A stretch of 64,000 bases of DNA, from NCBI GenBank assembly GCA_030390025.1, contig CM059432.1:71736001-71800000 (forward strand), in the 5' to 3' direction. Below, one piece after another: positions 9,724 through 53,515 of the stretch (the first letter of the stretch is position 1; the number at the start of each line of letters is the position of its first letter). The position numbers were made by a program, and so were the translations under genes. A model generated the notes under the pieces. It did not search any database. It saw only the letters and a list, made by a program, of their open reading frames with translations, and was not told where the DNA came from. The stretch comes from Squalus acanthias. Lineage: Eukaryota.

Positions 9724-12103
9724 TGTAATGGAATAAGCCATATTCCAAGAAATACATCATCCTATGAAAAGATTTTGATATTATTAATACAAGACATACT
9801 GGGGGAAAAATTCAGTTGGTTGCGCCTCCCGTTAGCGCCTTAAGAGGGCGCTAATGGGGCGCAAAGCATCTAGCGCCCAGGCGCGGCGAAGTTTGCGCCG
9901 CTCGCGAAATTAACTAGACATTTTGCGGCGGCGCTAAACACTACCGCCTTGATCTCCTGCACTGGCAGTTCATGACGTCACTCGAGTGCGCAACGCCCCG
10001 GTATCGCCCCGGAGCGGATATTGAGTGGCGCCCCCTGCCTTACCGCCTGACGCTGGCAACGACAGGTTGAGGGGAGCGCTCTGCAGTCATGAAGGGAAAG
10101 GGGGAGCGCTATTTAAAGGTGACCGCGTCCTGCCTTTTATTGTTGGTGCCATTTTTGAACTACGCATTCTGAGAGAGAGAGAGGGAGAGACTTCTGGAGA
10201 GATTCAACGTTGTGTGAAGGAGTTTTGGGTACTGAGCAGCACTTTGCAGGTTTATTTTGATTTGCCATTCCTTGCATCGATTTAGCAGAGATTGTGGGGG
10301 CTGCACTCTGAGCTCTTTGCCTGGTACTCTCCATTGTTCTTTCCAGCACATTTGATGTGCAGGTCTCTCCAGGCCGAGATTCAAGGCTGCAATGAGCAGG
10401 ATGTGGATGGAAAGCAAGATTAACCATCCCCTTTAAGAACTGGCCCGTGCCATTGTGTGCGTGTTCCATTGCTGACTGACATTACATGAGCTTCGCCAGC
10501 GCTCTGAGGTAGCGCCTCGCTCCTCGGCCTTTGCGCCTTAAGACAGGTGTGAAGCGCCTGATATAGCGCTGCAATCACCTCCAGGGGCGATAAAAGTCAA
10601 GTTTGCAGTCGGTGGCTATAATTAGCGCCAGGCGCTAATCTTTGCGCCCGGCCGATAATTGCGCCCCAAATGGGGCAATACTGAATTTCTCCCCCACTGA
10701 GTTTAAAAGTCTGGAAAGCCTCGGCGACACAGGCTGCAAACACAATACAGGCTTCTGAGATAAGGTGAAGTGTTAACAAAAGCTGTAAAACACTACAAGC
10801 TTTGAAATGGGAGATGGTTGTAAACACAAAAACAATGCCCCTATTGAAGCAAACCATTGGCGCTTCCAGAAGGTCTGGAGTTTGGGAGAAACACAATGGA
10901 ATGACCCAAGTAAAGTGTCAAAATCTAACACGTCAAACAGGTGCACAGAACATTAAAAAAAACAAGTGCCTTTGAAAAAATGACATCAAGTAAAAGAAAT
11001 ACCTGCCGTAAAATAGTTTTATGTTAAACTTAGAAACAGGAAACACGATTAAATATGCAACCAATTGAGATAGCAAGAAAACAAGTAAACACTCTAAGAG
11101 AAGTGTTTTTGATTTACATATTGTAAAAGATACCTACAGAGAGGCTTTGATGATGTAATATCAATAGATGACACCAAGCAATTACATTGTGTTTGTATTG
11201 AACTTGGAACACCACGGAGTCACGACGTCTGGCTTACAAGCAGTTAAGTGATATTAAGAATTCAATAGAAAGACTTCCTAAGAATAGCATCATAAGATAA
11301 ATCTGTAATAACCATTTTATGATAGTTTTTGAAACACCTAAAAGGTAGAGACAGAATTCTAAAAGTTGGCAGCTGAAATGACAGTAAGAATAGAAAAGAA
11401 TTCAATAAAGAATCACTAGAGATAATTAGCTTACATCAGCAGGAAACCTCAAAGAAAATACCACTAAAAAAAGGTATAAAAATAGAGCTTTTCAGATAGC
11501 GAGTCAGAAGTCGCTGGAAGGGCAAGCGTTTCTCAACTTCACAGGCACGCTCTGTAAGTTTTCAACTCTGAGTCTCGGGTAATCAAGGTATTTGATTTTG
11601 GTGGATATTCTGGATTAAGAAATAAGTAGAAGTGTGGAAATGTAACGAAGTTAAGATTTGAGAATAAGGATCTCTGATAAGAAATGTAAGCTATTTGTAT
11701 TTTGAACGGTTAAAGTTGCGATTGCCATACCAGCTGTTAACTAAATGTTGGTTCTTTAATAAATCTACATATTTTTATAATTGTCTGAGTATTTCTGTAT
11801 CAATCTCGCAAACTCAATTTCTGTAAACTCTTCAGTGAGGAGTTGTAGAATTCTGGGGGGTTTTCCAGACCCTCATAATATCTGGAAGGTTACAGTCTAG
11901 TTAAACTTATTAAAAGTGCTATCCGGAGGACGGTAACATCTTCAGGCCGTTCCATTCCTTTATGGAGAGATAGTCTGACCTTTAGACCCAATTAAGCATC
12001 TCTAGGATTCGGCTACCACTAACTTTAGTTGAAGGTGAACATCTGGGGAATACGCCTGATCTGGGGTAGTCCGAAAGGGCTAGGACTTGTAATTATCCCT
12101 TCA
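9724..12103 (+). mobile_element. Solo LTR (about 1.5 kb net) with a nested MITE
   Basis: TG...CA termini (TGTAATGGAATAA...TTATCCCTTCA), 4-bp TSD CCTG at 9720-9723 and 12104-12107, TATAAAA near 11475, AATAAA near 11758, no coding capacity. Confidence 0.75.
9801..10695 (+). mobile_element. PIF/Harbinger MITE family 1a
   Basis: TIR GGGGGA(A/G)AAATTCAGT; 3-bp TSD ACT; close copies at 23663 and 62727; left end homologous to the transposase-bearing element end at 59981. Confidence 0.85.
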
Positions 12104-12484
12104 CCTGCATGTTAACTTTCAGTCATTCGTGTACAAGGACACCCAGGTCCCGCTGAACACCAACATTTCCCAATCTCTCACCATTTAAAAAATATTCTGC
12201 TTTTCTATTTTTCCTACCAAAGTGGATAACTTCACATTTCTCCACATTATATTCCATTTACCATGCTCTTGCCCACTCACTTAGCCTGTCTATATCCCCT
12301 TGAAGCCTCCTTGCATCCTCCTCACAACTTACATTCCCACCCAGCTTTGTATCATCAGCAAACTTGGATATATTACATTTGGTCCCCTCATCCAAATCAT
12401 GGACACAATACCACAATACTCTAGTTGTGGCCGAACCAGTGTTTTATAAAGGTTCATCATAACTTCCTTGCTTTTGTACTCGAT

Positions 12485-12971
12485 GGGCTGGATTTTGTCT
12501 TGGGGTCGGGTTGAGAGAGCGAGAGAGAGAGAGAGAGAGAAAGATAATTTTTTTTTCCATCCAGGTCCTCCAAAGGCCCCGGCAGTCTCTGAAGACATTC
12601 AGTGCAGCAGCATCAGAGGCGACTTTCAGACCTAATACTACTACTACCTTCATCACATCTCCGCTGTAATAGTGGACCTGCAGCTGATAGTTAGCTATCC
12701 ACTTGTGCTCCCACCAGGTTTCACTGGCGTGTTTCACATCAGGCGTGCTTCACGTCAGAAAAGGGTTAAACTAGCTAAAACGTTTCAAAATGGCATTACA
12801 GAGCCAATTTAGGGCTTGTTAAGGGCTTTAATGGCCTCTCGCGCCTCTTGGAGGCGGGAACACCGCACACGATTTTATCAAAATTGCATGGAGGCGGGAC
12901 CCCCGAATCTGCAACTTTAACCCCCCACACGCCTCCAAACCCGACTCCACGGGTCATTGAAAATCCAGCCC
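12485..12971 (+). mobile_element. Harbinger-like MITE family 2, internally deleted
   Basis: TIR GGGCTGGATTTT/AAAATCCAGCCC; homologous to 61586-62282 but lacks about 200 bp. Confidence 0.8.
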
Positions 12972-13015
12972 CATGTCTCTATTTATAAAGGTCATGATGC
13001 CTCTATTTATAAAGG

Positions 13016-13053
13016 TCACCTGAGGAAGGAGCGATAGTTCCGAAAGCTTGTGA
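13016..13053 (+). ncRNA. Minimal type I hammerhead ribozyme
   Basis: TCAC-CTGAGGA-A-GGAGC(GATA)GTTCC-GAAA-GC-TT-GTGA: intact CUGANGA/GAAA core, stems I and II pair, palindromic AAGCTT in place of stem III. Confidence 0.8.
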
Positions 13054-13143
13054 TTTCAAATAAAACTGTTGGACTATAACCTGGTGTTGTGCGACCTCTC
13101 AATTTTGTCCACCCCAGTCCAACACCGGCATCTCCGCATCACT

Positions 13144-13181
13144 TCACCTGAGGAAGGAGCGATAGTTCCGAAAGCTTGTGA
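13144..13181 (+). ncRNA. Minimal type I hammerhead ribozyme (second tandem copy)
   Basis: Identical to 13016-13053. Confidence 0.8.
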
Positions 13182-14089
13182 TTTCAAATAAAACTGTTGG
13201 ACTATAACCTGGTGTTGTGCGACCTCTCTATTTATAAAGCCCAGGATCCCGTATGCTTTTTTAACTGCTTTCGCAACCTGCCCTGCCACCTTCAATGATT
13301 TGTGCACATATACCCCCCAGGGTCTCCCTGTTCCTGCACCCCTTTAGAATTGTACCCTTTAGTTTATATTGCCTCTTGACGTTCTTCCTACCAAATGTAT
13401 CACTTCGCACTTTTCTGCGTTAAATTTCATCTGCCATGTGCCTACCCATTCCACCAGCCTGTCTATGTCCTCTTGAAGTCTATCCCTATCATAGAAAGTT
13501 ACAGCAGGAAAGGAGGCCATTTCTGCCCATCGTGTCCGCGCCGGCCAACGAAGAGCTATCCAGCCTAATCCCACTTCCCAGCTCTTGGTCCGTAGCCCTG
13601 CAGGTTAGAGCATCCCAAGTGCACATCCAAGTACTTTTTAAATGTGGTTAGGGTTCTTGCCTCTACCACCCTTTCAGGCAGTGCGTTCCAGACCCCCACA
13701 ACCCTCTGGGTGAAGAAATTTCCCCTCAAATCCCCTCTAAACCTTCCCCCAATTACTTTAAATCTGTGCCCCCTGGTTTTTGACCCCTCTGCTAAGGGAA
13801 ATAGGTCCTTTCTATCCACTTTATCCATGCCCCTCATAATTTTATACACCTCAAGGTCTCCCATCAGCCTCCTCTGTTCCAAGGAAAACAGACCCAGCCT
13901 ATCCAGTCTTTCCTCATAGCTAAGATTCTCTACTCCTGGCAACATCCTTGTAAATCTCCTCTGTACCCTCTCTAGTGCAATCACATCTTTCCTGTGATGT
14001 GGTGACCAGAACTGCACGCAGTACTCTAGCTGAGGCCTAATTAGTGTTTTATACAGCTGAAGCATAACCCCCCTGCTCTTGTATTCTAT

Positions 14090-14759
14090 TGAGAGGTCGC
14101 ACAACACCAGGTTATAGTCCAACAGTTTTATTTGAAATCACAAGCTTTCGGAGTTACTACTCCTTCGTCGGTTGAAGTAAAGAGATACAGAATCGCCAAA
14201 GCATATATAGATAGAGAACAATGCATGTGTACCTTACAATTGCAGACAACTAAATTAAATCATCCTGACTGTTTATCTGCCGAGGTGTGATAAAGTTAAT
14301 CAGGTCAGCCAGGAAGGTACCACATCAAAGACATAGCAAGATACAACTGAGACAATGAGGTGGAGTCACAGGGGGTCTAACGTGTCAAAAGCTGCCGTCT
14401 GTATGTAAAACGATTAACTTTAAAATTTTTACTTTTTTACTGGGAATCACATCTGTGAACAAGCCAACGACGACTCGAGTCCGGATCACGTCATGTATCG
14501 TGACATAAACCCAAGATCCCGGTTGAGACCGTCTTCATGAGTGCGGAACTTGGCTATCAGTTTCTGCTCGATGATTTTGCGTTGTCGTGTTTTCCTAAGG
14601 CCGCCTTGGAGAACGCTTACCCGCAGATCCGAGGCTGAATGTCCTTGACTGCTGAAGTGTTCCCCGACTGGGAGGTAACAATCCTGCCTGGTGATTGTTG
14701 CGCGGTGCTCGTTCATACGTTGTCTCAGTGTCTGCATGGTCTCGCCGATGTACCATGCC
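14090..14759 (-). mobile_element. Penelope-like element family B, 5'-truncated (GIY-YIG C-terminus and 3' end)
   Basis: ORF 14486-14737 TLRQRMNEHR...VGEHF...EQKLIAKF...GLN; 9-bp TSD GTATTCTAT at 14081-14089 and 14760-14768. Confidence 0.85.
14138..14175 (-). ncRNA. Minimal hammerhead ribozyme variant
   Basis: CCGACGA-A-GGAGT(AGTA)ACTCC-GAAA-GCTT-GTGA; core U-to-C change and one stem I mismatch. Confidence 0.6.
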
Positions 14760-20047: not shown

Positions 20048-23028
20048 CATAGAAACATAGAAAATAGGTACAGGAGTAGACCATTCGGTCCTTCGAGCCT
20101 GCACCGCCATTCAATGCGTTCATGGCTGAACATGCTACCTCAGTACCCCATTCCTGCTTTCTCGCCATACCCCTTGATCCCCTTAGTTGTGAGTGTTATA
20201 TCTAACTCCCTTTTGAATATATTTAGCGAACTGGCCTCAACAACCTTCTGTGGAAGAGAATTCCATAGATTCACCACTCTCTGGGTGAAGAAGTTCCTCC
20301 TCAGCTCAGTCCTAAATGGCTTCCCCTTAATCCTTAGACTGTGACCCCTGGTTCTAGTTTTCCCTACCATTGGGAACATTCTGCCCGCATCTAATTTGTC
20401 TAAACCAGTCAGGATTTTAAATGTCTCTATAAGATCCCCCCTCATTCTTCTGAACTCCAGAGGATACAAGTTCAGTTGACCCAATCTTTCTTGATATGTC
20501 AGTCCGGCCATCCCAGGAATCAATCTAGTGAACCTTCGCTGCACTCCCTCAATAGCAAGAATGTCCTTCCTTAAGTTAGGAGACCAAAACTGCGCACAAT
20601 ACTCCAGGTGTGGCCTCACCAAGGCCCTGTACAACTGTAGCATCACCTCCCTACTCCTGTACTCAAATCCCCTTGCTATGAAGGCCATCATTCCGTTTGC
20701 TTTCTCGACTGCCTGCTGCACTTGCATTCCCACCTTCAGTGACTGATGTACCATGACGCCCAGGTCTCGTTGCACGTCCCCTTTCCCTAATCTGCCACCA
20801 TTCAGGTAATAGTCCGCCTCTCTATTTTTACCACCAAAGTGGATAACCTCACATTTATCCACATTGTACTTCATCTGCCATACATTTGCCCATTCACCCA
20901 ACCTGTCCAAGTCACTCTGTAGCCTCCTAGCATCCTCCTCATTGTTCACACTGCCTCCCAATTTAGTGTCATCCGCAAATTTGGAGATATTACATTTAAT
21001 CCCTTCGTCCAAATCATTAATATATAATGTAAACAGCTGGGGTCCCAGCACCGAACCCTGCGGTACCCCGCTGGTCACTGCCTGCCATTCTGAAAAGTAC
21101 CCATTTACTCCTACTCTTTGTTTCCTGTGTGCCAACCAGTTCTCAATCCACGTCAACACATTACCCCCAATCCCATGTGCTTTAACTTTGCTCACCAATC
21201 TCTTGTGTGGGACCTTGTCGAAGGCCTTCTGAAAGTCCAAATACACCACATCTACTGGTTCCCCCCTGTCTACCCTATTGGAAACATCCTCAAAAAATTC
21301 CAGAAGATTTGTCAAGCATGATTTCCCTTTCACAAATCCATGCTGACTTGGACCTATCATGTCGCCACTTTCCAAATGGTCTGTTATGACATCTTTAATA
21401 ATTGCTTCCATCATTTTACCCACGACCGATGTCAGGCTGACCGGTCTATAATTCCCTGCTTTCTCCCTCCCTCCTTTTTTAAAAAGAGGGGTTACATTGG
21501 CCACCCTCCACTCCATCGGAACTGATCCAGAGTCTAAGGAATGTTGGAAAATGATCGTCAATGCATCCACTATTTCCAAGGCCACCTCCTTAAGTACTCT
21601 GGGATGCAGACCATCAGGCCCCGGGGATTTTTCAGCCTTCAGTCCCATCAATTTCCCCAATACCTTTTCCCGACTAATAAGGATTTCCCTCAGCTCCTCC
21701 CTCTTACCAGATCCTCTGACCCCTTTTATTTCCGGCAGGTTGTGTGTGTCCTCCACAGTAAACACCGAACCAAAGTACTTGTTCAATTGATCTGCCATTT
21801 CCTTGTTCCCCATTACGACTTCCCCTGTTTCCGACTGCAGGGGACCTACGTTTGTTTTTACTAACCTCTTTCTTTTTACATATTTATAGAAGCTTTTGCA
21901 GTCCATTTTAATGTTCTCTGCAAGCTTCCTTTCATATTTTATTTTCCCTGCCCTAATCAAACCCTTCGTCCTCCTCTGCTGAGTTTTGAAGTTCTCCCAG
22001 TCCCCGGGTTTGCTGCTACTTCTGGCCAATTTGTATGCAACTTCCTTGGTTTTAATACTATCCCTGATTTCCCTTTTTAGCCATGGTTGAGCCACCTTCC
22101 CTTTTTTATTTTTATGCCAGACCGGGATGTACAATTGTTGTAGTTCATCCATGCGATCTCTAAATGTCTGCCACTGCCCTTCCACTGATAGCCCCTTAAA
22201 TATCGCTTGCCAATTTAACCTCGCCAATTCTCGCCTCATACCCTCAAAGTTGCCCTTATTTAAGTTCTGGACCATGGTCTCTGACTTAACTGTTTCCTTC
22301 TCCATCCTAATGTAGAACTCCACCATACTATGGTCACTCTTCCCCAGGGGGCCTCGTACCACAAGATTGCTGATTAGTCCCTCCTCATTACACAACACCC
22401 AGTCCAGGATGGCCTCCCCTCGAGTTGGTTCCTCAACATATTGGTTTAGGAAACCATCCCTTAAACACTCCAGGAAATCCTCCTCCACCGTATTGCTTCC
22501 AGTTTGAGTAGCCCAATCTATATGCATATTAAAGTCACCCATGATAACTGCCGTGCCTTTTTTGCACGCACCTCTGATTTCCTGTTTCATACCCTCCCCC
22601 ACCTCACTACTGCTGTTTGGAGGTCTGTACACAACTCCCACTAACGTTTTCTGCCCTTTGGTGTTCTGCAGCTCAACCCATATTGATTCCACATCCTCCA
22701 AGCTGATGTCCTTCCTAGCTATTGCATTAATCTCCTCTTTAACCAGCAATGTTACCCCACCCCCTTTTCCTTTTATTCTATCCTTTCTGAATGTTGAATA
22801 CCCCTGGATGTTCAGTTCCCAGCCTTGATTGTTCTGGAGCCACGTCTCTGTAATCCCAATCACATCGTATCCGTTAACATCTATTTGCACAGTCAATTCA
22901 TCCACCTTATTACGGATACTCCTTGCATTAAGACACAGAGCCTTTAGGCTTGTTTTATTAACATCCTTTGTCCTTTTAGACTTATGATTTAGTATGGCCC
23001 TTTGTGTTTCTTGCCTTTGTTTACTCGG
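20048..23028 (-). mobile_element. Young CR1 LINE, 5'-truncated just upstream of ORF2
   Basis: (TTTCTATG)n tail at 20048; CATA duplicated at both junctions (20048-20051, 23029-23032); clean insertion into the DeuSINE. Confidence 0.95.
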
Positions 23029-23031
23029 CAT
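20140..23031 (-). CDS. CR1 ORF2: apurinic endonuclease plus reverse transcriptase, uninterrupted
   Basis: 967-codon open frame with NARS, ITETW, GDFN, SDH (APE) and YRPVSL, DFQKAFD, GVPQGS, FADD (RT). Confidence 0.92.
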   Translation of the reverse strand: MPSKQRQETQRAILNHKSKRTKDVNKTSLKALCLNARSIRNKVDELTVQIDVNGYDVIGITETWLQNNQGWELNIQGYSTFRKDRIKGKGGGVTLLVKEEINAIARKDISLEDVESIWVELQNTKGQKTLVGVVYRPPNSSSEVGEGMKQEIRGACKKGTAVIMGDFNMHIDWATQTGSNTVEEDFLECLRDGFLNQYVEEPTRGEAILDWVLCNEEGLISNLVVRGPLGKSDHSMVEFYIRMEKETVKSETMVQNLNKGNFEGMRRELARLNWQAIFKGLSVEGQWQTFRDRMDELQQLYIPVWHKNKKGKVAQPWLKREIRDSIKTKEVAYKLARSSSKPGDWENFKTQQRRTKGLIRAGKIKYERKLAENIKMDCKSFYKYVKRKRLVKTNVGPLQSETGEVVMGNKEMADQLNKYFGSVFTVEDTHNLPEIKGVRGSGKREELREILISREKVLGKLMGLKAEKSPGPDGLHPRVLKEVALEIVDALTIIFQHSLDSGSVPMEWRVANVTPLFKKGGREKAGNYRPVSLTSVVGKMMEAIIKDVITDHLESGDMIGPSQHGFVKGKSCLTNLLEFFEDVSNRVDRGEPVDVVYLDFQKAFDKVPHKRLVSKVKAHGIGGNVLTWIENWLAHRKQRVGVNGYFSEWQAVTSGVPQGSVLGPQLFTLYINDLDEGIKCNISKFADDTKLGGSVNNEEDARRLQSDLDRLGEWANVWQMKYNVDKCEVIHFGGKNREADYYLNGGRLGKGDVQRDLGVMVHQSLKVGMQVQQAVEKANGMMAFIARGFEYRSREVMLQLYRALVRPHLEYCAQFWSPNLRKDILAIEGVQRRFTRLIPGMAGLTYQERLGQLNLYPLEFRRMRGDLIETFKILTGLDKLDAGRMFPMVGKTRTRGHSLRIKGKPFRTELRRNFFTQRVVNLWNSLPQKVVEASSLNIFKRELDITLTTKGIKGYGEKAGMGY

Positions 23032-24012
23032 AAAAGATCCCATGGCACTATTCGAAGAGGAGCAGGTGAGTTATCCTGGTGTTCTGGCCAATATTTATCC
23101 CTCAATCAACATCCCTAAAACAGACAATCTGGTCATGATTTCATTGCTGTTTAAGGTACCTATGTGAAAATTGGCTACCGCTTTTTCCTACATTACAACA
23201 GTGACTACACTTCAAAAGTATTTAATTGGCTGTAAAGCACTTTGAGACACACTGAAGTCGTAAAAGGTGCTATATAAAATGCACGCTCTTTCTAACGCTA
23301 CTGTTTTTAAATTTAGAAGTTAAATATTGAATAAAATATAGTTTTCATTTCTGCTTTCGAAACCTTGATAAAAGATCCCCAAATGGTAAAGGATTAGAAT
23401 CCAGTCTAATAGTTAATAAAAACTGAAGGAATTTTGTGCATGTGAATTAAGATTTATTTTGCACTAACCTGGTAATGTAATGATACATTCATGCTCAACG
23501 TTGGCAGGAGCAATTACCAGGGGAAAAAAATCTACACCTCTTCGCTCTGTAATCAGTTTGGGCCCCAACTTTGATTTACAGTAGCAAACTTTACCATCTG
23601 TGTGAAGAGACCCATTTACACCTTTAATGAAAAGGAGAACTTGCATCCTAATAGCACCTTAAGGGGGAAAAATTCAGTTGGTTGCACCTCCCGTTAGTGC
23701 CTTAAGAGGGCGCTAATGAGGCGCAAAGCAACTAGCGCCCGGGCGCGGCGATGTTTGCGCCGCTCGCGAAATTAACTGGACATTTTGCGGCGGCGCTAAA
23801 CACTACCGCCACGATCTCCTGCGCCGGCAGATCGTGACGTCAGTCGAGTGCGCAACGCCCTGGTGCGGATATTGAGTGGCGCCCCCTGCCTTATCGCCTG
23901 CCACGACAGGTTGAGGGGAGCGTTTTGCAGTCAGGAAGGGACTGGGGGAGCGCTATTTAAAGGCGACCGCTTCCTGCCTTTTTTTGTTGGTGACATTTTT
24001 GAACCACGCATT

Positions 24013-24304: not shown

Positions 24305-24722
24305 GACGATAGCAAAATACTGCGGATGCTGGAAATCTGATAACAACAGAAAACGCTGGAAAAACTCAGCAGGCCAGGCAGCATCCGTGGAGAGAGAAAG
24401 AGAGTTAACGTTTCAGGTCGATGACCTTTCATCAGAACTGTGAAGAGCCGGAAATCAAATAGATTTAAGGCCAGAGTAAAGCTGGGAAAAGGGGGAGGGG
24501 ATAAAAGAACAAAGGGGGAGATGAAGAGACATTAAGAGACATTAAGAGATATGCAAGGCTAGAGGTGGTGTTAATGTGACAGATTAAGGCTGCAAGAAGT
24601 GTGAAATCCACTGGCAGAATGAAGGACAGCTGCCAGCTTCTAGGAGGAAAAGAAAGGTGGGGGGGGCAAATAAAAGGGTGGAAAAAATAAAATATAAATG
24701 TGATTGGAGCTGAGGTTATGAT
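24305..24722 (-). mobile_element. Penelope family A 3' non-coding fragment
   Basis: Homologous to 41450-41825; 13-bp TSD CCTCCCCTTTAAC at 24292-24304 and 24723-24735. Confidence 0.85.
24403..24439 (-). ncRNA. Minimal type I hammerhead ribozyme (family A)
   Basis: AGTT-CTGATGA-A-AGGTC(ATC)GACCT-GAAA-CG-TT-AACT. Confidence 0.8.
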
Positions 24723-25765
24723 CCTCCCCTTTAACAACTGGCCGGTGCCATTGTGTCTGTGTTCCATTGCTGACTGACATCACATGAGCTTCGCCAACGC
24801 TCTGAGTTAGCGCCTCACTCCTCGGCCTTTGCGCCTTAAGACAGATGTGTAGCGCATGATTTAGCACTCCAATCACCTCCAGGGGCGATAAAAGTCAAGT
24901 TTGCAGTCGGAGGCGATAATTAGCGCCAGGCGCTAATCTTTGCGCCCGGCCGATAATTGCGGCCCAAATGGGGCGATACTGAATTTCTCCCCCCATGTCT
25001 TTTGGATCTCTCCAAGCACTTTATACTTCAAAAAGTAATTCATTGATCGTAGTCACTGTGATATAAGCAAACTCAGCAGACAATTTGCACACAGAAAATT
25101 CTCAAATTTAGTAAATGAGATGAATGACCAGTTACTCTGTTTTTAAGTGGCACCGAGTGAGAAATGAATGTTGACCAGGACACCAAGAAAACTCCCTTCT
25201 CTTCGAATTGTGCCATGGCACCAATTACGTTCATTTGAACAGGCATTATTTTGGTTTAGCATCTTATCCAAAACACTGCACCTCTGACAATGAAGTGGGA
25301 GATACAGGGACATGACCAGTGAGGTATGTAATCTGGGATGTACTGTACACAAGCCAAAAATCAAACTATGGAGCACCAAATAAAAATGGCCAACAGCAAA
25401 TATCTTCACTGTTAATTTTAGAGCACTCCTGAGAGAACAAACCACCTCTTCAGAACTATTCAACTTGTTCAGGGCGACGCCCATTTTAAACCAGAAAGCT
25501 ACGTTGTTTAAAATCACTGGGTTATAAAACTTTTTTAAAAAACCTTTTGAAAACACATCCGTGATTAGTTGTTACCGTTATTAGTGGCAGCACCTTAAAT
25601 CTCAAGGAAGTAGGATGCTCTCACTGCTAACATCAAAACAGAGGAAAGCCTCAATACACCGCAAGATCTCAAAAAGGAACCCATACATCCAAATGAAACG
25701 CTGATTCGACCCCCCCCCCCATTTCGTTGTTTCTGCTGCATTGTTGTTCATGCTACTGAGCTCAC

Positions 25766-32825: not shown

Positions 32826-32929
32826 GGAATAGTCGAGTTTGGCAAATAACACATAAATGTAATGTCATGTATATTGTAGAACCAACACAGACTCAATGTT
32901 CACCCTAATTTTGTTTTTGCCCTGCGCGG

Positions 32930-34230
32930 CCCTTCTCCTCGCCCCCTTCGATCCCCTCTCCTCGCCCCCTTCGATCCCCTCTCCTCGCCCCCTTCGGTCC
33001 CCCCTCCTCGCCCCCCTTCGGTCCCCCCTCCCCGCCCCCCTTTGGTCCCCCCTCCTCGCCCCCCTTCGGTCACCCCTCCTCGCCCTCTTTCGGTCCCCCC
33101 CCCCCCTTCGGCCCCTCGCCCCCCTTCTGTCTCCCCCCTCGCCCCCCTTCTGTCTCCCCCCTCGCCCCCCTTCGGTCCCCCCTCGCCCCCCTTCGGTCCC
33201 CCCTCCTCGCCCCCTTCGGTCCCCCCTCCTCGCCCCCCTTCGGTCCCCCCTCCTCGCCCCCCTTCGGTCCCCCCTCCTCGCCCCCCTTCGGCCCCTCGCC
33301 CCCCTTCTGTCTCCCCCCTCGCCCCCCTTCGGTCCCCCCTCCTCGCCCCCTTCGGTCCCCCCTCCTCGCCCCCCTTCGGTCCCCCTCCTCGCCCCCCCTT
33401 CGGTCCCCCCTCCTCGCCCCCCTTCTGTCTCCCCCCTCGCCCCCCTTCTGTCTCCCCCCTCGCCCCCCTTCGGTCTCCCCCCTCGCCCCCCTTCTGTCTC
33501 CCCCCTCGCCCCCCTTCGGTCTCCCCCCTCGCCCCCCTTCTGTCTCCCCCCTCGCCCCCCTTCGGTCCCCCCTCCTCGCCCCCCTTCGGTCTCACCCCCC
33601 TCGCCCCCCTTCGGTCCCCCCTCCTCGCCCCCTCCTTCGGTCCCTCGCCCCCCTTCGGTCCCCCCCCTCGCCCCCCTTCGGTCCCCCCTCCTCGCCCCCC
33701 TTCGGTCCCCCCCTCCTCGCCCCCCTTCGGTCCCCCCCTCCTCGCCCCCCCTTCGGTCCCCCCTCCTCGCCCCCTTCGGTCCCCCCTCCTCGCCCCCTCC
33801 TTCGGTCCCTCGCCCCCCTTCGGTCCCCCCCTCGCCCCCCTTCGGTCCCCCCTCCTCGCCCCCCCCTTCGGTCCCCCTCCTCGCCCCCCTTCGGTCCCCC
33901 CTCCTCGCCCCCCCTTCGGTCCCCCCTCCTCGCCCCCCTTCGGTCCCCCCTCCTCGCCCCCTCCTTCGGTCCCTCGCCCCCCTTCGGTCCCCCCCTCGCC
34001 CCCTTCGGTCCCCCCTCCTCGCCCCCCTTCGGTCCCCCCTCCTCGCCCCCCTTCGGTCCCCCCTCCTCGCCCCCCTTCGGTCCCCCCTCCTCGCCCCCCT
34101 TCGGTCCCCTCTCCTCGCCCCCTTCGGTCCCCCCTCCTCGTCCCCCTTCGGTCCCCTCTCCTCGCCCCCTTCGGTCCCCTCTCCTCGCCCCCTTCGGTCC
34201 GCCCCTTCGATTCGCTCTCCTCCCCCACCC
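32930..34230. repeat. C-rich minisatellite, unit about 18-24 bp (CCCCTTCGGTCCCCCCTCCTCG)
   Basis: Dozens of variant units; follows a hAT-like left end CAATGTTCACCCTAATTTT at 32894. Confidence 0.95.
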
Positions 34231-34729
34231 CAAACATCTGGTCTCCTGACCTTCTCCACATGGAGCCGAGGAAAGTGTGGTGGTGCAGGCCTCAGCTGCC
34301 GCACTGTTTGGTACTGTGTATGCGCAAGCGGATTGAGTGCGCATGCACAGTACCAAACGGGCGCGCATGCGCAGAAGGAGTCAAAAAACGGTGTGCAAAT
34401 AATCACTCCACTCAGCTGGGCGCTATTCACAAAGGGAGCATGGATTAGAAACTGGGCTACAATACTCTAGCGCTGATCCTCTAACCAGCTCTCCCTTTGA
34501 TCATGGTTCCTCATAAGGAAAGTGTGACCAGTGAATACACCCACAATTCTGGTGCCAAAGAGAATCCCCAAAGAAGTAGTAAACAGTGACTGAGATCGGG
34601 GAAAAACACTTGACAGTTAAAGCTTGCATCCTCACTTCCACTTTAAACACACAGTACAGTCAAACGGAGATCATAGAGTCTATTGCTAGGGAACTACTAC
34701 CACTTGCCTGTTAATAAGTTAATACCTTC

Positions 34730-35206: not shown

Positions 35207-35257
35207 TTGGACCCCCTGGGACACATCTCATTGTCTTGGCTGTGCTCTTTGTTGTAG

Positions 35258-35530
35258 GGAATAATGTGAATAGATTTTGTCTGGGTTTAAATTGTGAATT
35301 CTGGGAGATTCTCTCATTGCTAACTTACCTGACGAAGGAGCGAACTGCTTCGAAAGCTTGTAAAATTAAATAAATCTGTTGGACTATAACCTGGTGTTGT
35401 GCGACTTCTCATTTTTAAGAAGAAGAAGACCTTCATTAAAATAGCAGAAGGATTTCATACCATATGCTATTATCCCGCAGTTTAATTTTAAGGCCAGAAA
35501 AGAAAAAGTGCAAAACTGCATGTTAAATGG
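35258..35530 (+). pseudogene. Candidate exon E, interrupted by a mini-Penelope insert (3' boundary uncertain)
   Basis: TTTGTTGTAG| phase 1; removing the insert and one TSD gives NNVNRFCLGLNCEFWEILSFLRRRRPSLK*QKDFIPYAIIPQFNFKARKEKVQNC. Confidence 0.45.
35319..35406 (+). mobile_element. Penelope family B solo 3' terminus with a hammerhead ribozyme (35325-35363)
   Basis: TTAC-CTGACGA-A-GGAGC(GAACT)GCTTC-GAAA-GCTT-GTAA; TCTCATT duplicated at 35312-35318 and 35407-35413. Confidence 0.75.
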
Positions 35531-41170: not shown

Positions 41171-41510
41171 TGGAAAAGGACAGGAAGCAATCTAGAGTAA
41201 GAATGTTTAACTGGGGGAAGGCCAATTTCAGTGGGATGAGAACAGATCTGGCCCGGGTAAACTGGAATCAAAGATTGGCAGGCAAAACTGTAGTGGAACA
41301 ATGGGCTGCCTTTAAAGAGGAAACAGTTCGGGTACAGTCGAAGTACATTTCCACGAGGGGAAAAGGTAGGGCAACTAAAGTCAGAGCTCCCTGGATGATG
41401 AAACAGATAGCCAATATAATGAAGCAGAAAAAGAACACGTATGACAGATAACAACAGAAAACGCTGGAAAAACTCAGCAGGCGAGGCAGCATCCGTGGAG
41501 AGAGAAACAG

Positions 41511-41547
41511 AGTTAACGTTTCAGGTCGAAGACCTTTCATCAGAACT
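41511..41547 (-). ncRNA. Minimal type I hammerhead ribozyme (family A)
   Basis: AGTT-CTGATGA-A-AGGTC(TTC)GACCT-GAAA-CG-TT-AACT. Confidence 0.8.
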
Positions 41548-41816
41548 GGAGACAGCAGGAAATCAAATAGATTAAAAGCAAGGATAAAGCTGGGAAAAGG
41601 GGGAGGGGATGAAAGAACAAAAGGAGAGATTAAGAGACATTAAGAGACATCAAGAGACATTAAGAGATATTCAAGGCAAGAGGTGGTGTTAATGTGACAG
41701 GTTAAGGCTGAAAGAAGTGTGAAATGCACTGGCAGAATGAAGGACAGCTGCCAGCTTCTAGGAGGAAAAAAAAAGGGTGGATGAGAAAATAAAATATAAA
41801 TGTGATGGGGCTAAGG

Positions 41817-43482
41817 TTATGATCTAAAATTGTTGAACTCGATATTGAGTCCAGAGGGCTGTAGCGTGCCTAAACGAAAGATGAGGTGCTGTTCCTCGAG
41901 CTTACGCTGCGCTTCCGTGGAACAGTGTAATAGGCCGAGGACGGTGAGGTCTGAGTGGGAGTGAAGCGGTGAATTAAAGTGACAGGCGACCGGGAGCTCG
42001 GGGTCCCCCTTACGGACTGAACGGAGGTGTTCCGCAAAGCGGTCACCCAATCTGCGTTCGGTCTCCCCAATGTAGAGGAGACCGCATCGTGAGCAGCGAA
42101 TACAGTATACTAAATTGCAGGAAGTACAAGTAAATCGCTGTTTCACCTGGAAGGGGTGTTTGGGGCCCTGGACAGTGGGAAGAGGGGAGGTATAAGGGCA
42201 TGTGTTGCATCTCCTGCGCTTGCACGGGAAGGTGCCGGGCGAAGGGGAAGGGATGCTGGGGGTGGTAGAGGAGTGGACTAGGGTGTCGCGGAGGGAGCGG
42301 TCCCTGCGGAATGCTGAAAGGGGAGGTGAGGGGAAGATGCGTTTGGTGGTGGGATCACGCTGGAGGTGGCGGAAATGGCGGAGGATGATCCGTTGAATGT
42401 GGAGGCTGGTGGGGTGAAAGGTGAGGACAAGGGGAACTCTATCGTGGTTCCGGGAGGGAGGGGCAGGGGTGAGGGCAGAAGTGCGGGAGATAGAACGGAC
42501 ACGGTCGAGGGCCATGTCGATCACGGTAGAGGGGAATCCTCGGTTGAGGAAAAAGGAAGACATGTCGGAAGCACTGGTATGGAAGGTGGCATCATCAGAG
42601 CAGATGCGGCGGAGAAACTGGGAGAATGGAATAGAGTCCTTACAGGAGGCGGGGTGGGAGGAAGTGTAGTCCAGGTAGCTGTGGGAGTCAGTGGGCTTGT
42701 AGTGAATGTTAGTCAATAACCTATCCCCAGAGATGGAGACGGAGAAGTCGAGGAAGGGAAGGGAAGAGTCGGAGATGGACCATGTGAAGGTGAGGGAAGG
42801 GTGGAAATTGGAAGCATAGTGAATGAAATGTTCTAGTTCGGGGCGAGAGCAGGAGACGGCACCGATACAGTCATCAATGTACCGGAAAAAGAGGTGAGGG
42901 AGGGGACCCGAGTAGGACTGGAACAAAGAGTGTTCCACATATCCCACGAAAAGGCAGGCATAGCTAGGACCCATGCGGGTACCCATAGCAACACCTTTAA
43001 TTTGGAGGAAATGGGTGGAGTCAAAGGAGAAGTTGTTCAATGTGAGAACAAGTTCAGCCAGGCGGAGGAGGGTGGTGGTGGATGGGGACTGGTTGGGCCT
43101 CTGTTCAAGGAAGAAGCGGAGCGCCCTCAGGCCATCCTGGTGGGGGATGGAGGTGTAGAGGGATTGTACGTCCATAGTGAAGAGGAGGCGGTTGGGGCCA
43201 GGAAACTGGAAACTGTTAAAATGGCGGAGGGCGTTGGAAGAGTTGCGGATGTAGGTGGGAAGAGACTGGACAAGGGGAGAAAAAATAGAGTCGAGATAGG
43301 AAGAGATAAGTTCTGTGGGGCAAGAACAGGCTGAAACGATGGGTCTACCGGGGCAGTCCTGTTTGTGGATCTTGGGAAGGAGGTAGAAGCGGGCTGTGCG
43401 GGGTTGGGGAACTATGAGGTTGGCGGCCATGGGGGGAAGATCTCCAGAGGAGATGAGGTCAGTGACGGTCTTGGAAATGGTG
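41817..43482 (-). CDS. Penelope RT plus GIY-YIG endonuclease (N-terminally truncated, open frame)
   Basis: LPKIHK, GRPIVS, DVQSLYTSIP, GVAMG, RYIDD, LVYCIRC..C..LYIGET. Confidence 0.9.
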
Positions 43483-45462
43483 GTATGACAGATGTCAGGT
43501 TGCAAATACATCTGAGAATCAGGCTCTACATAGAAAGGTCAGAGGAGGAGTGAAAAAGAAAATAAGAGGGGCAAAGAGAGGGTATGAGAATAGAATGGCA
43601 GCCAACATAAAAGGTAATCCAAAAGTCTTCTATAAGCATATAAATACTAAAAGGGTAGCAAAAGGAGGGGTGGGGCTGATTATGGACCAAAAAGAAGGCC
43701 TATGCATAGAGGCAGAGGGTATGGCTGAGGTACTAAATGAGTCCTTTGCATCTGTCTTCACCAAGGAAGAGGATGCTGCCATAGACATAGTGAAGGAGGA
43801 GATAGTGGAGACACTTGATAGTATAAAAATTGATAAAAGAAGTTATTAGAAAGGCTGGCTGTACTTAAAGTAGATAAATCACCAGGAGCGGATGAGATGC
43901 CTCCTAGGATGCTGAGGGAATTGAGAGCAGAAATCGCGGAAGTACTGGCCATCATATTCCAATCCTCCATAGATATGGGGGTGGTGCCAGAGGACTGGAG
44001 AATTGCAAATGTTACACCATTGTTCAAAAAAGGGTGTAAAGATAAACCCAGCAACTATAGGCCAATCAGTTTAACCTCGGTAGTGGGGAAGCTGTTAGAA
44101 ACAGTAATCAGGGACAAAATTAACAGTCGCTTGGATAGGTGTGGATTAATTAAGGGAAGCCAGCACAGATTTTTTTTGATGAGGTAACAGAGAGGGTTGA
44201 TGAGGGCAATGTGGTTGACGTGGGTTACATGGACTTCCAAAAGGTTCTAAGACCACTGCTTTTCTTGATATATATTAATGACTTGGACGTGTGTGTACAG
44301 GGCACAATTTCAAAATTTGCAGATGACACAAAACTTGGAAGTATAGTGAACAGTGAGGAGGAGGAGAGTGATAGACTTCAAGAAGGCACAGACAGGCTGG
44401 TGAAATGGGCGTACACGTGGCAGATGAAATTTAACGCAGTAAAGTGTGAAGTGATACATTTTGGTAGAAAGAATGAGGAGAGGCAACATAAACTAAATGG
44501 TACAATCCTAAAGGGGGTGCACGAACAGAGAGACCTGGGGTTATATGTGCAGAAATCGTTGAAGGTGGCAGGACAGGTTGAGAAAGCAGTTAAAAAGGCT
44601 TACGGGATCCTGGGCTTCATAAATAGAGGTATAGAATACAAAAGTGTGGAAATTATGATGAACCTGTATAAAACACTGGTTCGGCCCCAACTGGAGTACT
44701 GTGTCCAATTCTGGGCACCACACTTTAGGAAGGATGTGAAGGCCTTAGAGAGGGTGCAGAAAGGATTTCTGAGAATGATTCTAGGAATGAGGGACTTCAG
44801 TTACGTTGATAGACTGGAGAAGCTGGGGTTGTTCTCCTTGGAGCAGAGGAGATTTGATAGAGGTGTTCAAAATCATGAGGGGTCTGGACAGAGTAGATAG
44901 AGAGAAACTGTTCCCATTGGCAGAAGGGCCGAGAACCAGAAGACACAGATTTAAGGTGATTGGCGAAATAACCAAAGGCGGCATAAGAAAAAACTTCTTA
45001 ATGCAGCGAGTGGTTAAAATCTGGAATGGTGGTGGAGGCAGACTCAATCTTATCTTTCAAAAGGGAGTTGGATAAGTAGCTGAAGGAAAACAATTTGCAG
45101 GGTTACGGGGGAAGGGCAGGGAGTAGGACTAGCTGAGAGTCTGCATGGGCTCGACGGGCCAAATGACCGCCTTCCGTGCTGTAACCATTCTATGATTCTG
45201 TTCTGCTGCCTCTTCCGGAGCATTCCCCACCCGACAGGGAGCCAAGCCTGTCGAACAGGTTGGCTTCTGGGCGGGGAGTCTGCTTTAAAAAAAAACACAC
45301 GCCATGGAGTTAAAATTCCACGCCGTTCGGGGAAACCCAACCCCAACTATAACTCCTCCGCCGCCACCCCCTGCTTGGAAATCTCACCCCAGTAACTATA
45401 GGGGTCATAATTACTAACTTTTTTGTCTCATATTTTTGTTAATTAAAAAAGTTTAATGCAGC

Positions 45463-45593
45463 AAAAGCAAAATACTGCGGATGCTGGAAATCTGAAATAA
45501 AAACAGACAATGCTGGAAATACTCAGCAGGTCAGGCAGCCTCTGTGGAGAGAGAAAGAGTTAATGTTTCAGGTCAATGACCTTTTGTCAGAAC
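45463..45593 (-). mobile_element. Penelope family A terminal remnant with a decayed hammerhead
   Basis: Homologous to 24310-24440; core reads CTGACAA...GAAACATT. Confidence 0.7.
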
Positions 45594-46505: not shown

Positions 46506-47100
46506 CTTTTTTTATTCGTTCCTGGGATGTGGACATTGCTGGCAAGGCCAGCATTTATTGCCCATCTCTAATTACCCTTGAAAAGGTGGTGGTGAGCTGT
46601 CTTCTTGAACTGCTGCAGTCCCTGTGTTGAAGGTTCTCCCATAGAAACATAGAAACATAGAAAATAGGTACAGGAGTAGACCATTCGGTCCTTCGAGCCT
46701 GCACCGCCATTCAATGCGTTCATGGCTGAACATGCTACCTCATGTTCAGCCATGAACGCATTGAATGGCGGTGCAGGCTCGAAGGACCGAATGGTCTACT
46801 CCTGTACCTATTTTCTATGTTTCTATGTTTCTATGGGAGAACCTTCAACACAGGGACTGCAGCAGTTCAAGAAGACAGCTCACCACCACCTTTTCAAGGG
46901 TAATTAGAGATGGGCAATAAATGCTGGCCTTGCTGATAGGGAGGGAGTTCCAGGATTTTGACCCAGCAACGATGAAGGAACAGCGATATATTTCCATGTC
47001 AGGATGTCCTTGTCCTTCTAGGTGGTAGAGGTCGTGGGTTTGGGAGGTGCTGTCGAAGAAGCCTTGGCGAGTTGCTTCAGTGCATCTTGTAGATGGTGCA
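46506..47100 (-). mobile_element. CR1-type family X 3' end, host of the fold-back insertion
   Basis: Homologous to 1480-1830. Confidence 0.8.
46542..46933. repeat. Perfect inverted repeat: 193-bp arms, 6-nt spacer
   Basis: 46542-46734 is the reverse complement of 46741-46933; spacer CTACCT. Confidence 0.95.
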
Positions 47101-48213: not shown

Positions 48214-49130
48214 TGCATCTGTGGAGAGAGAAACAAAGTTAACATTTCAGGTCGATGACCTTTTATCAGAACTGGAAAAAGTTAGAGATGTAAAGGTTTT
48301 AAGCAAGTACAGGGGCAGGGAAAGGGGAGGAAAGAACAAAAGAGAAGGTTTGTGATAAGGTGGAAGGCAGGAGAGATTAAATGACAAAAGGGATGATGGT
48401 GCAAAGCAAAAGGGGGTGGTAATGGGACAAGTTATGGGTCTAGAGGAGGTGCAAATGGGAATAGCGGAATCATTACCAACAGCTGCCATCTGAAAAAATG
48501 GGGCAGTGGTTATGATCTGAAATTGTTGATCTCATTGTTGAGTCTGGAAGGCTGTAAACTGCCTAATCGAAAGATGAGGTGCTGTTCCTCAAGCTTACGT
48601 TAAGCTTCATTGGAACGGTGTAGGAGGCTGAGGACAGAGAGGTCAGGGTAGGAGTGAGATGGAGAATTAAAATGGCAAGTGACCGGAAGCTCAGAGTCAC
48701 ACTTGCGGACTGAATGGAGGTGTTCCGCAAAGCGATCACCCAATCCTCCCCAATGCAGAGGAGACAGCATCGTGAGCAGCGAATACAGTATACTAAATTG
48801 AAAGAAGTACATGTAAATAGCTTTTTCACCTGGAAGAAGTGTTTGGGGCCCTGGACAGTGGGAATGGAGGAGGTAAAAGGGCAGAAACTGCATCTCCTGC
48901 GCTTGCACGGGAAGGTGCCATGGGAAGGGGAGCAGGTGTTGGGGGTGATTGAGGAGTGGACCAGGGTGTCGCAGAAGGAACCGTCACTTCGGAATGCGAA
49001 AACGGGAGTGGAGGGGAAGGTGTGTTTGGTGGTGGCAGGGCAGTCCTGTTTGTGGATTTTGGGAAGGAGGTAGAAGCGGGTTTTGCAGGGTTGGGGGTCT
49101 ATGAAGTTGGAGGCCGTGGAGGGAATATCA
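48214..49130 (-). mobile_element. Older Penelope family A-related copy with a large internal deletion
   Basis: Frameshifted GIY-YIG remnant (LVYCIRCSRC); decayed hammerhead at 48237-48273. Confidence 0.85.
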
Positions 49131-52700: not shown

Positions 52701-53515
52701 CACGAAAAGGCAGGCATAGCTAGGACCCATGCGGGTACCCATAGCAACACCTTTGATTTGGAGGAAATGAGTGGAGTCAAAGGAGAAGTTGTTCAATGTG
52801 AGAACAAGTTCAGCCAGGCGGAGGAGGGTGGCGGTGGATGGGGACTGGTTGGGCCTCTGTTCAAGGAAGAAGCGGAGCACCCTCAGGCCATCCTGGTGGG
52901 GGATGGAGGTGTAGAGGGATTGTACGTCCATGGTGAAAAGGAGGCGGTTGGGGCCAGGAAACTGGAAACTGTTAAAGTGGCAGAGGGCGTCAGAGGAATC
53001 GCGGATGTAGGTCGGAAGGGACTGGACAAGGGGAGAAAAAATAGAGTTGAGATAGGAAGAGATAAGTTCCGTGGGGCAAGAGCAGGCTGAAACGATGGGT
53101 CTACCAGGGCAGTCCTGTTTGTGGATCTTGGGAAGGAGGTAGAAGCGGGCTGTGCGGGGTTGGGGAACTATGAGGTTGGCGGCCGTGGGTGATTATGATG
53201 GGTTTGGATAGGCTAGACGGGGAAAGGCTGTTCCCACTAGTTGATGGTACAAGGACTAGGGTCACAGATTTAAGGTTTTGGGCAAGAGATACAGGGGGGA
53301 TGTGAGGGGAAACTTTTTTACGCAGTGAGTGGTGAGGACCTGGAACTCGCTGCCGACGGAAGTGATGGAAGCGGAGACACTCAATGTTTTCAAGGGGAGA
53401 CGGGATAGGCACCTGAGGGAAATAAACTTGCTGGGCTACGAGGATAGAGCGGGGGAATGGGACTGACTGGATTGCTCTACAGAGAGCCGGCGCGGACTCA
53501 TTATGTTATGACTCT
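49790..53515 (+). mobile_element. CR1 family Y ORF2 and 3' end, split by Penelope (segments 49790-51199 and 53191-53515)
   Basis: ORFs 49832-50488 and 50680-51200; EVYKIMM|GLDRL continues across the insert. Confidence 0.9.
51200..53190 (-). mobile_element. Penelope-like element family A, 5'-truncated; hammerhead variant at 51265-51300
   Basis: 11-bp TSD GATTATGATGG at 51189-51199 and 53191-53201; ORF 51318-52931 with RYIDD and GIY-YIG; CCGACGA-A-GGGT(TTCG)ACCT-GAAACGTT. Confidence 0.95.

What the first reader, a model, noticed from the sequence alone, without database searches (positions are those of the whole stretch)
13001..13239. Tandem 128-bp hammerhead repeat: candidate minimal retrozyme
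Seen: a non-coding insert with a 14-bp TSD, made of a 128-bp unit plus a partial second unit, each starting with an identical intact hammerhead. Its terminal part matches the 3' end of the GIY-YIG-bearing Penelope at 14090. Established: Penelope-like elements carry minimal type I hammerheads that lack stem III and are thought to cleave as dimers through a palindrome (here AAGCTT); retrozymes are hammerhead-flanked non-autonomous repeats that give small linear or circular RNAs. Inference: two cleavages would release a 128-nt monomer, and the more-than-one-unit structure fits copying of a circular template by Penelope RT in trans. It could instead be a solo pseudo-LTR tandem.
Basis: partly seen in the sequence, partly recalled or inferred. 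Interest (0 to 1): 0.75.

Follow-up and report, generated by a model that had tools for sequence, protein, structure and literature searches.

The report
Double stub of Penelope retroelement end
The two hammerhead ribozyme motifs are real, but they are most likely two short end-pieces of a common shark jumping gene (a Penelope-like element) stitched together during one insertion, not a copy of a circular RNA; the stitch points hint at how such tandem ribozyme repeats first arise.

Summary
Observation confirmed: two identical minimal hammerheads 128 nt apart, inside a real target-site duplication in a CR1 LINE; 90% identical to the end of the Penelope-like (PLE) copy at 14090-14759. The circle-template reading is not supported. 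Contigs from four shark-type runs show the family ends at two sites 40 nt apart (the known PLE 'tail'); unit 2 ends at the first, unit 1 at the second, where family contigs carry on differently from this locus. Unit 2 begins at a TATA/Inr-spaced base. Best model: one insertion in which the RT started repeatedly at the tail sites of the ordinary PLE RNA, ran off its 5' end and jumped. No genome was available, so junction copy number and expression remain open. The scan noted a similar hammerhead pair as a truncated PLE in another shark-like genome (e1-7858566). Known kind of element; the run-off-and-jump route is a testable addition.

The parts
12973..12990 (+). Extra (third) copy of the CR1 target sequence at the 5' junction
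   Evidence: 24-bp repeat 12973-13018; target is single-copy in 3 paralogous CR1s
12991..13000 (-). Inverted 10-nt piece of the family's long-tail end (last 6 nt of unit 1 plus the next 4 family letters); read as an abortive top-strand-primed cDNA
   Evidence: Exact reverse complement, terminal register, using the loose-end consensus; absent from the 128-nt circle on both strands; last 4 nt also match the host
13001..13014 (+). Left target-site duplication (11-14 bp)
13015..13018 (.). Junction: the first 4 nt of the inverted piece again, overlapping helix I of hammerhead 1 by 3 nt (microhomology)
   Evidence: sequence; interpretation inferred
13016..13141 (+). Unit 1: PLE pLTR stub from the hammerhead to the long-tail end (probable ORF start codon follows in the family)
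   Evidence: loose ends behind 13141 in 4 of 4 runs begin TGA; that this ATG is the ORF start is inferred, not shown
13016..13053 (+). Minimal type I hammerhead 1; predicted cut after 13049 (CUU triplet)
   Evidence: cleavage untested
13081..13128 (+). Predicted stem-loop with an AC-rich 3' arm; the short-tail end site lies in its loop
   Evidence: -13.2 kcal/mol, z -1.7: weak; compare the AC-rich stem-loop RT start of PAc, PMC11167929
13141..13228 (+). Unit 2: PLE pLTR stub from the predicted transcription start (A at 13141) to the short-tail end
   Evidence: equivalent base 14178(-) has an Inr consensus with a TATA box 31 nt upstream; same end as the copies at 14090 and 35415
13144..13181 (+). 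Minimal type I hammerhead 2; predicted cut after 13177
   Evidence: cleavage untested
13226..13239 (+). Right target-site duplication; first 3 nt shared with the element end
14090..14759 (-). Same family: 5'-truncated PLE with the end of the endonuclease domain, 3'UTR, one hammerhead (C at core position 4), short-tail end, 9-bp TSD
35207..35415 (+). Same family, more diverged: 3'UTR, one hammerhead, short-tail end, 12-bp TSD
12103..13480 (-). Host: fragment of a CR1-type LINE, also interrupted at 12485-12971 by a MITE-like DNA element (ends approximate)
   Evidence: CR1 label from similarity to the EN+RT LINE frames in the window and recall

Best explanation
A pLTR-only insertion made in one event by the RT/GIY-YIG protein of an abundant shark PLE (Neptune-type by its linker motif), using the element's ordinary RNA. 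Shown: the anatomy, the TSD, and the match of both unit ends to family end sites. Inferred: (1) The PLE transcript starts at a TATA/Inr site 7 nt upstream of the hammerhead core. (2) The protein nicked an AT-rich CR1 site. The bottom-strand nick primed RT internally at the short-tail site of the upstream pLTR, so RT copied only 88 nt before running off the RNA 5' end (unit 2). (3) RT jumped or re-started at the long-tail site (1-nt microhomology) and copied 126-130 nt to the same 5' end (unit 1). (4) The top-strand nick also primed at the long-tail site, made 10 nt, slipped back onto the target by 3-4 nt of microhomology (giving the extra target copy), started again for 4 nt and annealed to the first cDNA through 3 nt, closing the insertion. 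The hammerheads were copied uncut and are passengers. The locus lacks the upstream TATA box and is probably a dead stub, though a read-through transcript could in principle fold as a double hammerhead and release 128 nt.
For: (4 of 20 listed runs, contigs only): contigs leave the reference behind 13141 in every run (145 of 919 partly fitting contigs in X2, 20 of 149 in X9, 25 of 101 in X6, 21 of 112 in X14). Their consensus begins TGAC in 3 runs and TGAT in 1, then decays (agreement 0.38-0.45), as expected for insertion ends. A second cluster of ends lies at 13101-13111 (43 and 18 in X2, 11 in X9, 2+2 in X6). The 40-nt gap matches the 30-40-bp PLE tail bounded by two internal RT start sites (PMC11167929; PMC8557442). 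Loose ends before 13016 end in the 3'UTR letters seen at 14178 (20, 4 and 3 contigs in X2, X6, X14), so the first letters of unit 2 are family sequence. The inverted 10-mer sits at the terminal register; 21 of 4942 random window 21-mers reach a 10-nt match anywhere in the 130-nt family sequence. PAc nicks and extends both strands and prefers AT-rich DNA; inverted truncated copies at the 5' end are standard. TATA-plus-Inr spacing occurs at 7 of 128,000 window positions and one is the base equivalent to 13141. Two single X2 contigs join other short-tail ends (13101, 13108) to the same start (13141, 13142). In a second PLE family in the window, 1 of 5 copies (45593) is a TSD-flanked stub starting 3 nt before its hammerhead core.
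Against: One locus. No genome was held, so 5'-end pile-ups and junction counts could not be made. The two supporting joints are single contigs of depth 2.8 and 9.0 with 21-22 nt on the short side, laid at 85% likeness, 'between: not known'. The TATA/Inr pattern was chosen after seeing the sequence and is only mildly enriched window-wide (7 vs 3.15 expected; 5 of 100 shuffles reach 7); D. virilis Penelope has a TATA-less internal promoter (PMC2377424). Of the inverted 10-mer, 4 nt match the host and 3 match helix I, so a slippage duplication leaves only 3 letters plus a register to chance (p about 0.014 for the letters). The other 2 family copies and 4 of 5 copies of the second family extend well upstream of the hammerhead. 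The middle junction has only 1 nt of microhomology. In X2 the depth beyond the junction cannot be read (73 contigs fit two places), so a subfamily that carries this junction is not excluded.
Confidence: 0.68

Rival explanations
1. Minimal non-LTR retrozyme: a 128-nt RNA is cut out by a double hammerhead, circularised, and copied 1.65 times round by PLE RT; or a non-autonomous master copy with this fixed tandem is spreading.
For: More-than-one-unit structure with identical hammerheads (85 of 85 nt). A nested double-hammerhead fold can be built. Retrozymes are pLTR-related and occur in a chondrichthyan genome (10.64898/2026.07.22.740005). Circular templates were proposed for PLEs (PMC4209133) and retrozymes (PMC7229834). 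A circle copied from the short-tail site would also end as unit 2 does.
Against: The inverted 10-mer needs family letters the circle lacks. The junction sits on the family's long-tail end site, and other tandem junctions give 89- and 95-nt units. The predicted circle is no more structured than shuffles (-23.3 kcal/mol, z -0.53, 136 of 500 as stable). The double-hammerhead fold is 6.9-14.1 kcal/mol above the minimum. Characterised retrozymes are about 170-400 nt with canonical hammerheads. Min-HHR dimers cleave weakly, and 1 of 9 Xenopus dimers cleaved.
Confidence: 0.12
2. Serial insertions at one hot spot: a short-tail stub landed first, and later events added a long-tail stub and the 10-nt inverted piece at its 5' edge.
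For: Three target copies are present. An X2 contig joins this CR1 target to 13074 of the unit, and another places a long-tail end 38 nt upstream in the CR1 (table 5c), so this CR1 stretch is hit repeatedly. PAc can cut its own pLTR junction.
Against: No duplicated target lies between unit 1 and unit 2. The units are identical while the other window copies differ by 10-15%.
Confidence: 0.11
3. Internal deletion of a pLTR-ORF-pLTR element that removed the whole ORF and 3'UTR.
For: Microhomology-mediated deletions disable PLE copies (PMC3846280). The result would be two identical pLTR pieces in one TSD.
Against: Both breakpoints would have to fall by chance on the long-tail end site and on the TATA/Inr base; only 1 nt of microhomology.
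Confidence: 0.06

Closest known systems
EN+ Penelope-like element insertions with pLTR, 30-40-bp tail and inverted 5' copy (PMC8557442 passages; PMC3846280 passages and Discussion); Neptune/Nematis-type linker in shark relatives
   Same: Min-HHR in the pLTR, two alternative 3' ends 40 nt apart, partial tandem, inverted piece at the 5' end, AT-rich target, variable TSD (9, 11-14 and 12 bp here). Shark relatives carry the CX2-5CxxC linker motif (4 of 4 proteins checked).
   Different: No ORF at all. Both tandem units are under 130 nt, the inverted copy is only 10 nt, and the target is present three times.
PAc, Poseidon PLE of Anolis carolinensis (Frangieh 2024, PMC11167929, main text read)
   Same: Internal RT initiation at two adjacent sites bounding the tail, AC-rich stem-loop, both strands nicked and extended, hammerhead not needed for insertion in vitro.
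   Different: In PAc the start sites lie more than 100 nt inside the ORF and the hammerhead overlaps the start codon; here the sites lie about 40 nt before and at the probable start codon. The text read does not describe run-off at the RNA 5' end or jumps that make stub tandems.
Animal non-LTR retrozymes (Cervera and de la Pena 2020, PMC7229834, parts 2-4 of 6; Li et al. 2026, 10.64898/2026.07.22.740005, parts 1-3 of 5)
   Same: Non-coding tandem with a type I hammerhead per unit, large TSD, derived from PLE pLTR; would be called retrozyme-like on layout.
   Different: Only 1.65 units, 128 nt, minimal rather than canonical hammerhead, no predicted stable circle, no sign of a fixed family junction, RNA not shown.

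Membership tests
EN+ Penelope-like element (non-coding terminal fragment) | Sequence is the terminal repeat of an element with RT and C-terminal GIY-YIG endonuclease | tested here: met
   90% to the end of 14090-14759, whose frame is 89% identical to the C-terminus of a shark RT protein; Pfam itself did not call GIY-YIG on that piece
EN+ Penelope-like element (non-coding terminal fragment) | Minimal type I hammerhead in the pLTR | tested here: met
   All core bases and min-HHR traits by inspection; no Rfam model matched
EN+ Penelope-like element (non-coding terminal fragment) | Two alternative 3' ends separated by a 30-40-bp tail | tested here: met
   Loose-end clusters at 13101-13111 and 13138-13146; the two units end at these two clusters
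EN+ Penelope-like element (non-coding terminal fragment) | Variable TSD at an AT-rich target | tested here: met
Neptune clade | CX2-5CxxC linker motif and RT phylogeny | tested here: inconclusive
   Motif present in 4 of 4 relatives checked, shared by Neptune and Nematis; no tree was built and the window copy lacks this region
Non-LTR retrozyme | [quoted passage not shown] | tested here: inconclusive
   Two complete motifs, but unit 2 is partial and Tandem Repeats Finder did not report the 128-bp repeat (parameters differ from Li et al.)
Non-LTR retrozyme | A fixed unit repeated as a family, with multimers | tested here: inconclusive
   family contigs leave at 13141 and other junctions exist; no listed piece bridges this junction (32 of 18,740 pieces shown), but contigs show presence only and no genome was held
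Non-LTR retrozyme | Small (about 170-400 nt), highly self-paired monomer | tested here: not met
   128 nt; circular fold z -0.53, 55% paired, same as shuffles
Non-LTR retrozyme | Self-cleavage of the dimer | not testable with these tools
   Only a folding estimate
Non-LTR retrozyme | Linear and circular monomer RNA in cells | not testable with these tools
   Only assembled contigs were offered; no run on record as RNA

The most novel reading that the evidence does not exclude
The locus records how retrozyme precursors are born. PLE RT that starts at a tail site in the upstream pLTR runs off the transcript's 5' end just above the hammerhead (a 'strong-stop'-like cDNA) and re-starts at a tail site. 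This writes a head-to-tail pLTR multimer with intact hammerheads in a single insertion, while the second nick primes a short inverted cDNA that closes the junction. That would give a one-step route from PLE to non-LTR retrozyme, with unit lengths set by (start site) minus (transcription start), here about 89, 95 and 128 nt. I did not find this route in the papers read or in four searches; Li et al. 2026 propose local amplification and unequal crossover. Most subscription papers are not in the library.
Probability: 0.4. Interest if true: 0.6.

Novelty: new member of a known kind. Interest (0 to 1): 0.33.

Why it matters
As an element it is ordinary: shark genomes hold very many such hammerhead-bearing PLE ends, and pLTR-derived hammerhead tandems are already described in vertebrates, including a cartilaginous fish. 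Its value is as a record of mechanism. How PLEs build their partial tandems and inverted 5' copies, and how retrozymes arise from them, is still open. The junctions here give a prediction that one genome-wide count can test: stub 5' ends should pile up at one base, and tandem unit lengths should be discrete.

Tried and rejected
No whole genome was held, so the genome-wide count could not be run. Rfam: no hammerhead model matched at E<=1. A 25-nt family pattern found 0 matches in metagenome contigs and 0 in viral contigs. A protein-based scan of metagenome contigs gave 3 distant loci of about 30% identity that were not used. Sequencing runs: no RNA holder listed; the RNA label of X9 and X14 is a guess, so nothing is concluded about expression. 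Summed contig depth falls sharply past the junction in X6 (169,383 at 13132-39; 4.7 and 0 at 13148-63), X14 (301,803; 57 and 13) and X9 (142,492; 476 and 420). It stays at about 243,000 in X2, where 73 contigs fit both hammerhead copies. Contig depth is no copy number and missing cover shows no absence, so this is not counted as evidence. No joint going back from 13143 to 13016 was listed, with the same caveat. Attempts to show that the ATG after 13140 starts the ORF failed: no shark N-terminus was recovered. Splicing as the cause of the middle junction was rejected: no GT/AG at the ends. Hammerhead cleavage as the cause of the 5' boundaries was rejected: the cut lies 30 nt downstream of the core start, while the boundaries lie 4-7 nt upstream. 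No host-gene Pfam domain in 53 of the window's 107 frames of 100 aa or more (only RT hits), so read-through transcription is unknown. Earlier-findings look-ups by sequence, relatives and 'retrozyme' returned nothing. The supplements of the 2026 bioRxiv preprint were not seen; its chondrichthyan retrozyme list may include this family.

Full report
Setting. The window is LINE-rich vertebrate DNA. The best protein relatives of its Penelope-like frame are annotated in sharks. No whole genome was held, so evidence from outside the window comes from one laying of assembled contigs from 4 of 20 listed public runs on 12940-13178.

Observation. Two hammerhead cores start at 13020 and 13148, and the units are identical over their shared 85 nt. 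Each has a 4-bp helix I, a 5-bp helix II with the extra base after A9, no helix III, and a palindrome across positions 14-17. This fits the minimal PLE hammerhead of Cervera and de la Pena 2014 (PMC4209133, parts 1-2 of 4 read). Rfam has no matching model. Predicted cuts after 13049 and 13177 would give 128 nt. The flanking 14-mer is a true TSD because three other CR1 copies in the window carry it once; 3 nt of it overlap the element's end. Two more family copies lie at 14090-14759 (minus; end of the endonuclease domain, 89% to a shark PLE protein) and 35207-35415. Each has one hammerhead preceded by 3'UTR, its own TSD, and ends within a few nt of where unit 2 ends.

What the unit ends are. 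In all four runs many contigs leave the reference behind 13141: 145 of 919, 20 of 149, 25 of 101 and 21 of 112 partly fitting contigs. Their consensus begins TGA(C/T) and then decays (24 loose-end rows shown, 271 hidden). So the family reads on into an ATG, probably the ORF start (not shown), and many insertions end there. A second cluster of ends lies at 13101-13111. Two ends 40 nt apart are the PLE 'tail' (PMC8557442 passages). Frangieh et al. showed for an anole PLE that these are two internal RT start sites, that both target strands are nicked and extended, and that hammerhead cleavage is not needed in vitro (PMC11167929, parts 1-2 of 4). Unit 2 is thus a short-tail stub and unit 1 a long-tail stub.

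The left junction. A third target copy lies at 12973-12990, followed by a 10-nt spacer. That spacer is the exact reverse complement of the last 6 nt of unit 1 plus the next 4 family letters, and it is absent from the 128-nt circle on either strand. Of 4942 random window 21-mers, 21 reach a 10-nt match anywhere in the family sequence, and this match is at the terminal register. The case is weaker than that number suggests: 4 of the 10 letters match the host and 3 match helix I, so a slippage duplication needs only 3 chance letters (p about 0.014) plus the right spacing. I read it as a short cDNA primed from the top-strand nick at the long-tail site, which slipped back onto the target, re-copied it, restarted for 4 nt and annealed to the first cDNA. 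It is a miniature of the inverted 5' copy typical of PLEs, and it implies that ordinary PLE RNA was the template at this site.

The 5' boundaries. Both units begin 4-7 nt upstream of the core, which hammerhead cleavage cannot explain. In the copy at 14090 the base equivalent to 13141 sits in an Inr consensus 31 nt below a TATA box. That spacing occurs at 7 of 128,000 window positions. The pattern was chosen after seeing the sequence and is only mildly enriched (7 vs 3.15 expected). PLE transcripts start within the upstream pLTR, though the D. virilis promoter is TATA-less (PMC2377424 passages); TATA and Inr-like motifs were noted in rotifer pLTRs (PMC3846280 passages). If 13141 is the RNA's first base, RT starting in the upstream pLTR would run off there. 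Two single X2 contigs join other short-tail ends (13101, 13108) to 13141 and 13142; they are of low depth with 21-22 nt on the short side. One of five copies of a second PLE family in the window is a TSD-flanked stub starting 3 nt above its core; the other four extend upstream.

Mechanism (0.68). One insertion by the PLE protein on its ordinary RNA: start at the short-tail site, run off the 5' end, re-start at the long-tail site, run off again, and close with a short top-strand cDNA. The anatomy and end-site coincidences are shown; the transcription start, the jump and the order of steps are inferred. The hammerheads were copied uncut.

Retrozyme reading (0.12). Not excluded, because contigs cannot show absence and the X2 depth beyond the junction is ambiguous. 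Against it: the inverted 10-mer, the junction falling on a normal end site, and other junction lengths. The predicted circle is no more structured than shuffles (z -0.53), and the double-hammerhead fold is 6.9-14.1 kcal/mol above the minimum. Characterised retrozymes are about 170-400 nt with canonical hammerheads and demonstrated circular RNA (PMC7229834, parts 2-4 of 6). Li et al. 2026 (bioRxiv 10.64898/2026.07.22.740005, parts 1-3 of 5; supplements not seen) already report pLTR-derived hammerhead tandems across vertebrates, including one chondrichthyan, with 1 of 9 tested dimers cleaving. So even if true, this reading would be a small member of a known kind. Serial insertion (0.11) and internal deletion (0.06) are weighed under rivals.

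Novelty. The element is a new member of a known kind. The possibly new point is the run-off-and-restart route to pLTR multimers, which I did not find in the texts read or in searches; a search for Penelope, shark and hammerhead ribozyme returned one review, seen as a listing only. Earlier AI notes of this scan describe similar shark PLE stubs, tandems and fold-back insertions; these are unchecked leads, not support. Interest 0.33; 0.6 if the route is confirmed by a genome-wide count.

Noticed in passing
window 41440-43538(-), 51200-53190(-), 24310-24800(-), 45460-45593(-), 48215-48700(-): A second PLE family with a different minimal hammerhead: five copies, two with long RT-GIY-YIG frames (573 and 624 aa). 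It also shows two 3' ends about 30 nt apart, and 45593 is a TSD-flanked stub starting just above the core.
   Followed up: partly
window 12485-12971 and about 61830-62290: Two copies (84% identical) of a MITE-like DNA element with 12-bp inverted ends (Harbinger-like, label recalled); the first abuts the PLE target site. A DDE_Tnp_4 transposase frame lies at 58215-59204.
   Followed up: partly
window 20140-23070(-): Uninterrupted 976-aa endonuclease plus RT frame of a CR1-type LINE, apparently young.
   Followed up: no
window 13001-13014 (table 5c): One X2 contig (depth 20.9) joins the same CR1 target directly to position 13074 of the unit, and another puts a long-tail end 38 nt upstream in the CR1: either a hot spot in this LINE or a different allele.
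   Followed up: no
window 32863-34470: GC-rich, strand-biased minisatellite of about 1.5 kb with several overlapping open frames.
   Followed up: no
window 13027-13041: Helix II is the most variable part of the family: three different stem-loops in the window and others among the contigs' loose ends, with pairing kept in the window copies.
   Followed up: partly
window 61794-61894(-), 46697-46776(-): Weak Rfam miRNA-precursor matches far below their gathering scores; probably repeat hairpins.
   Followed up: no
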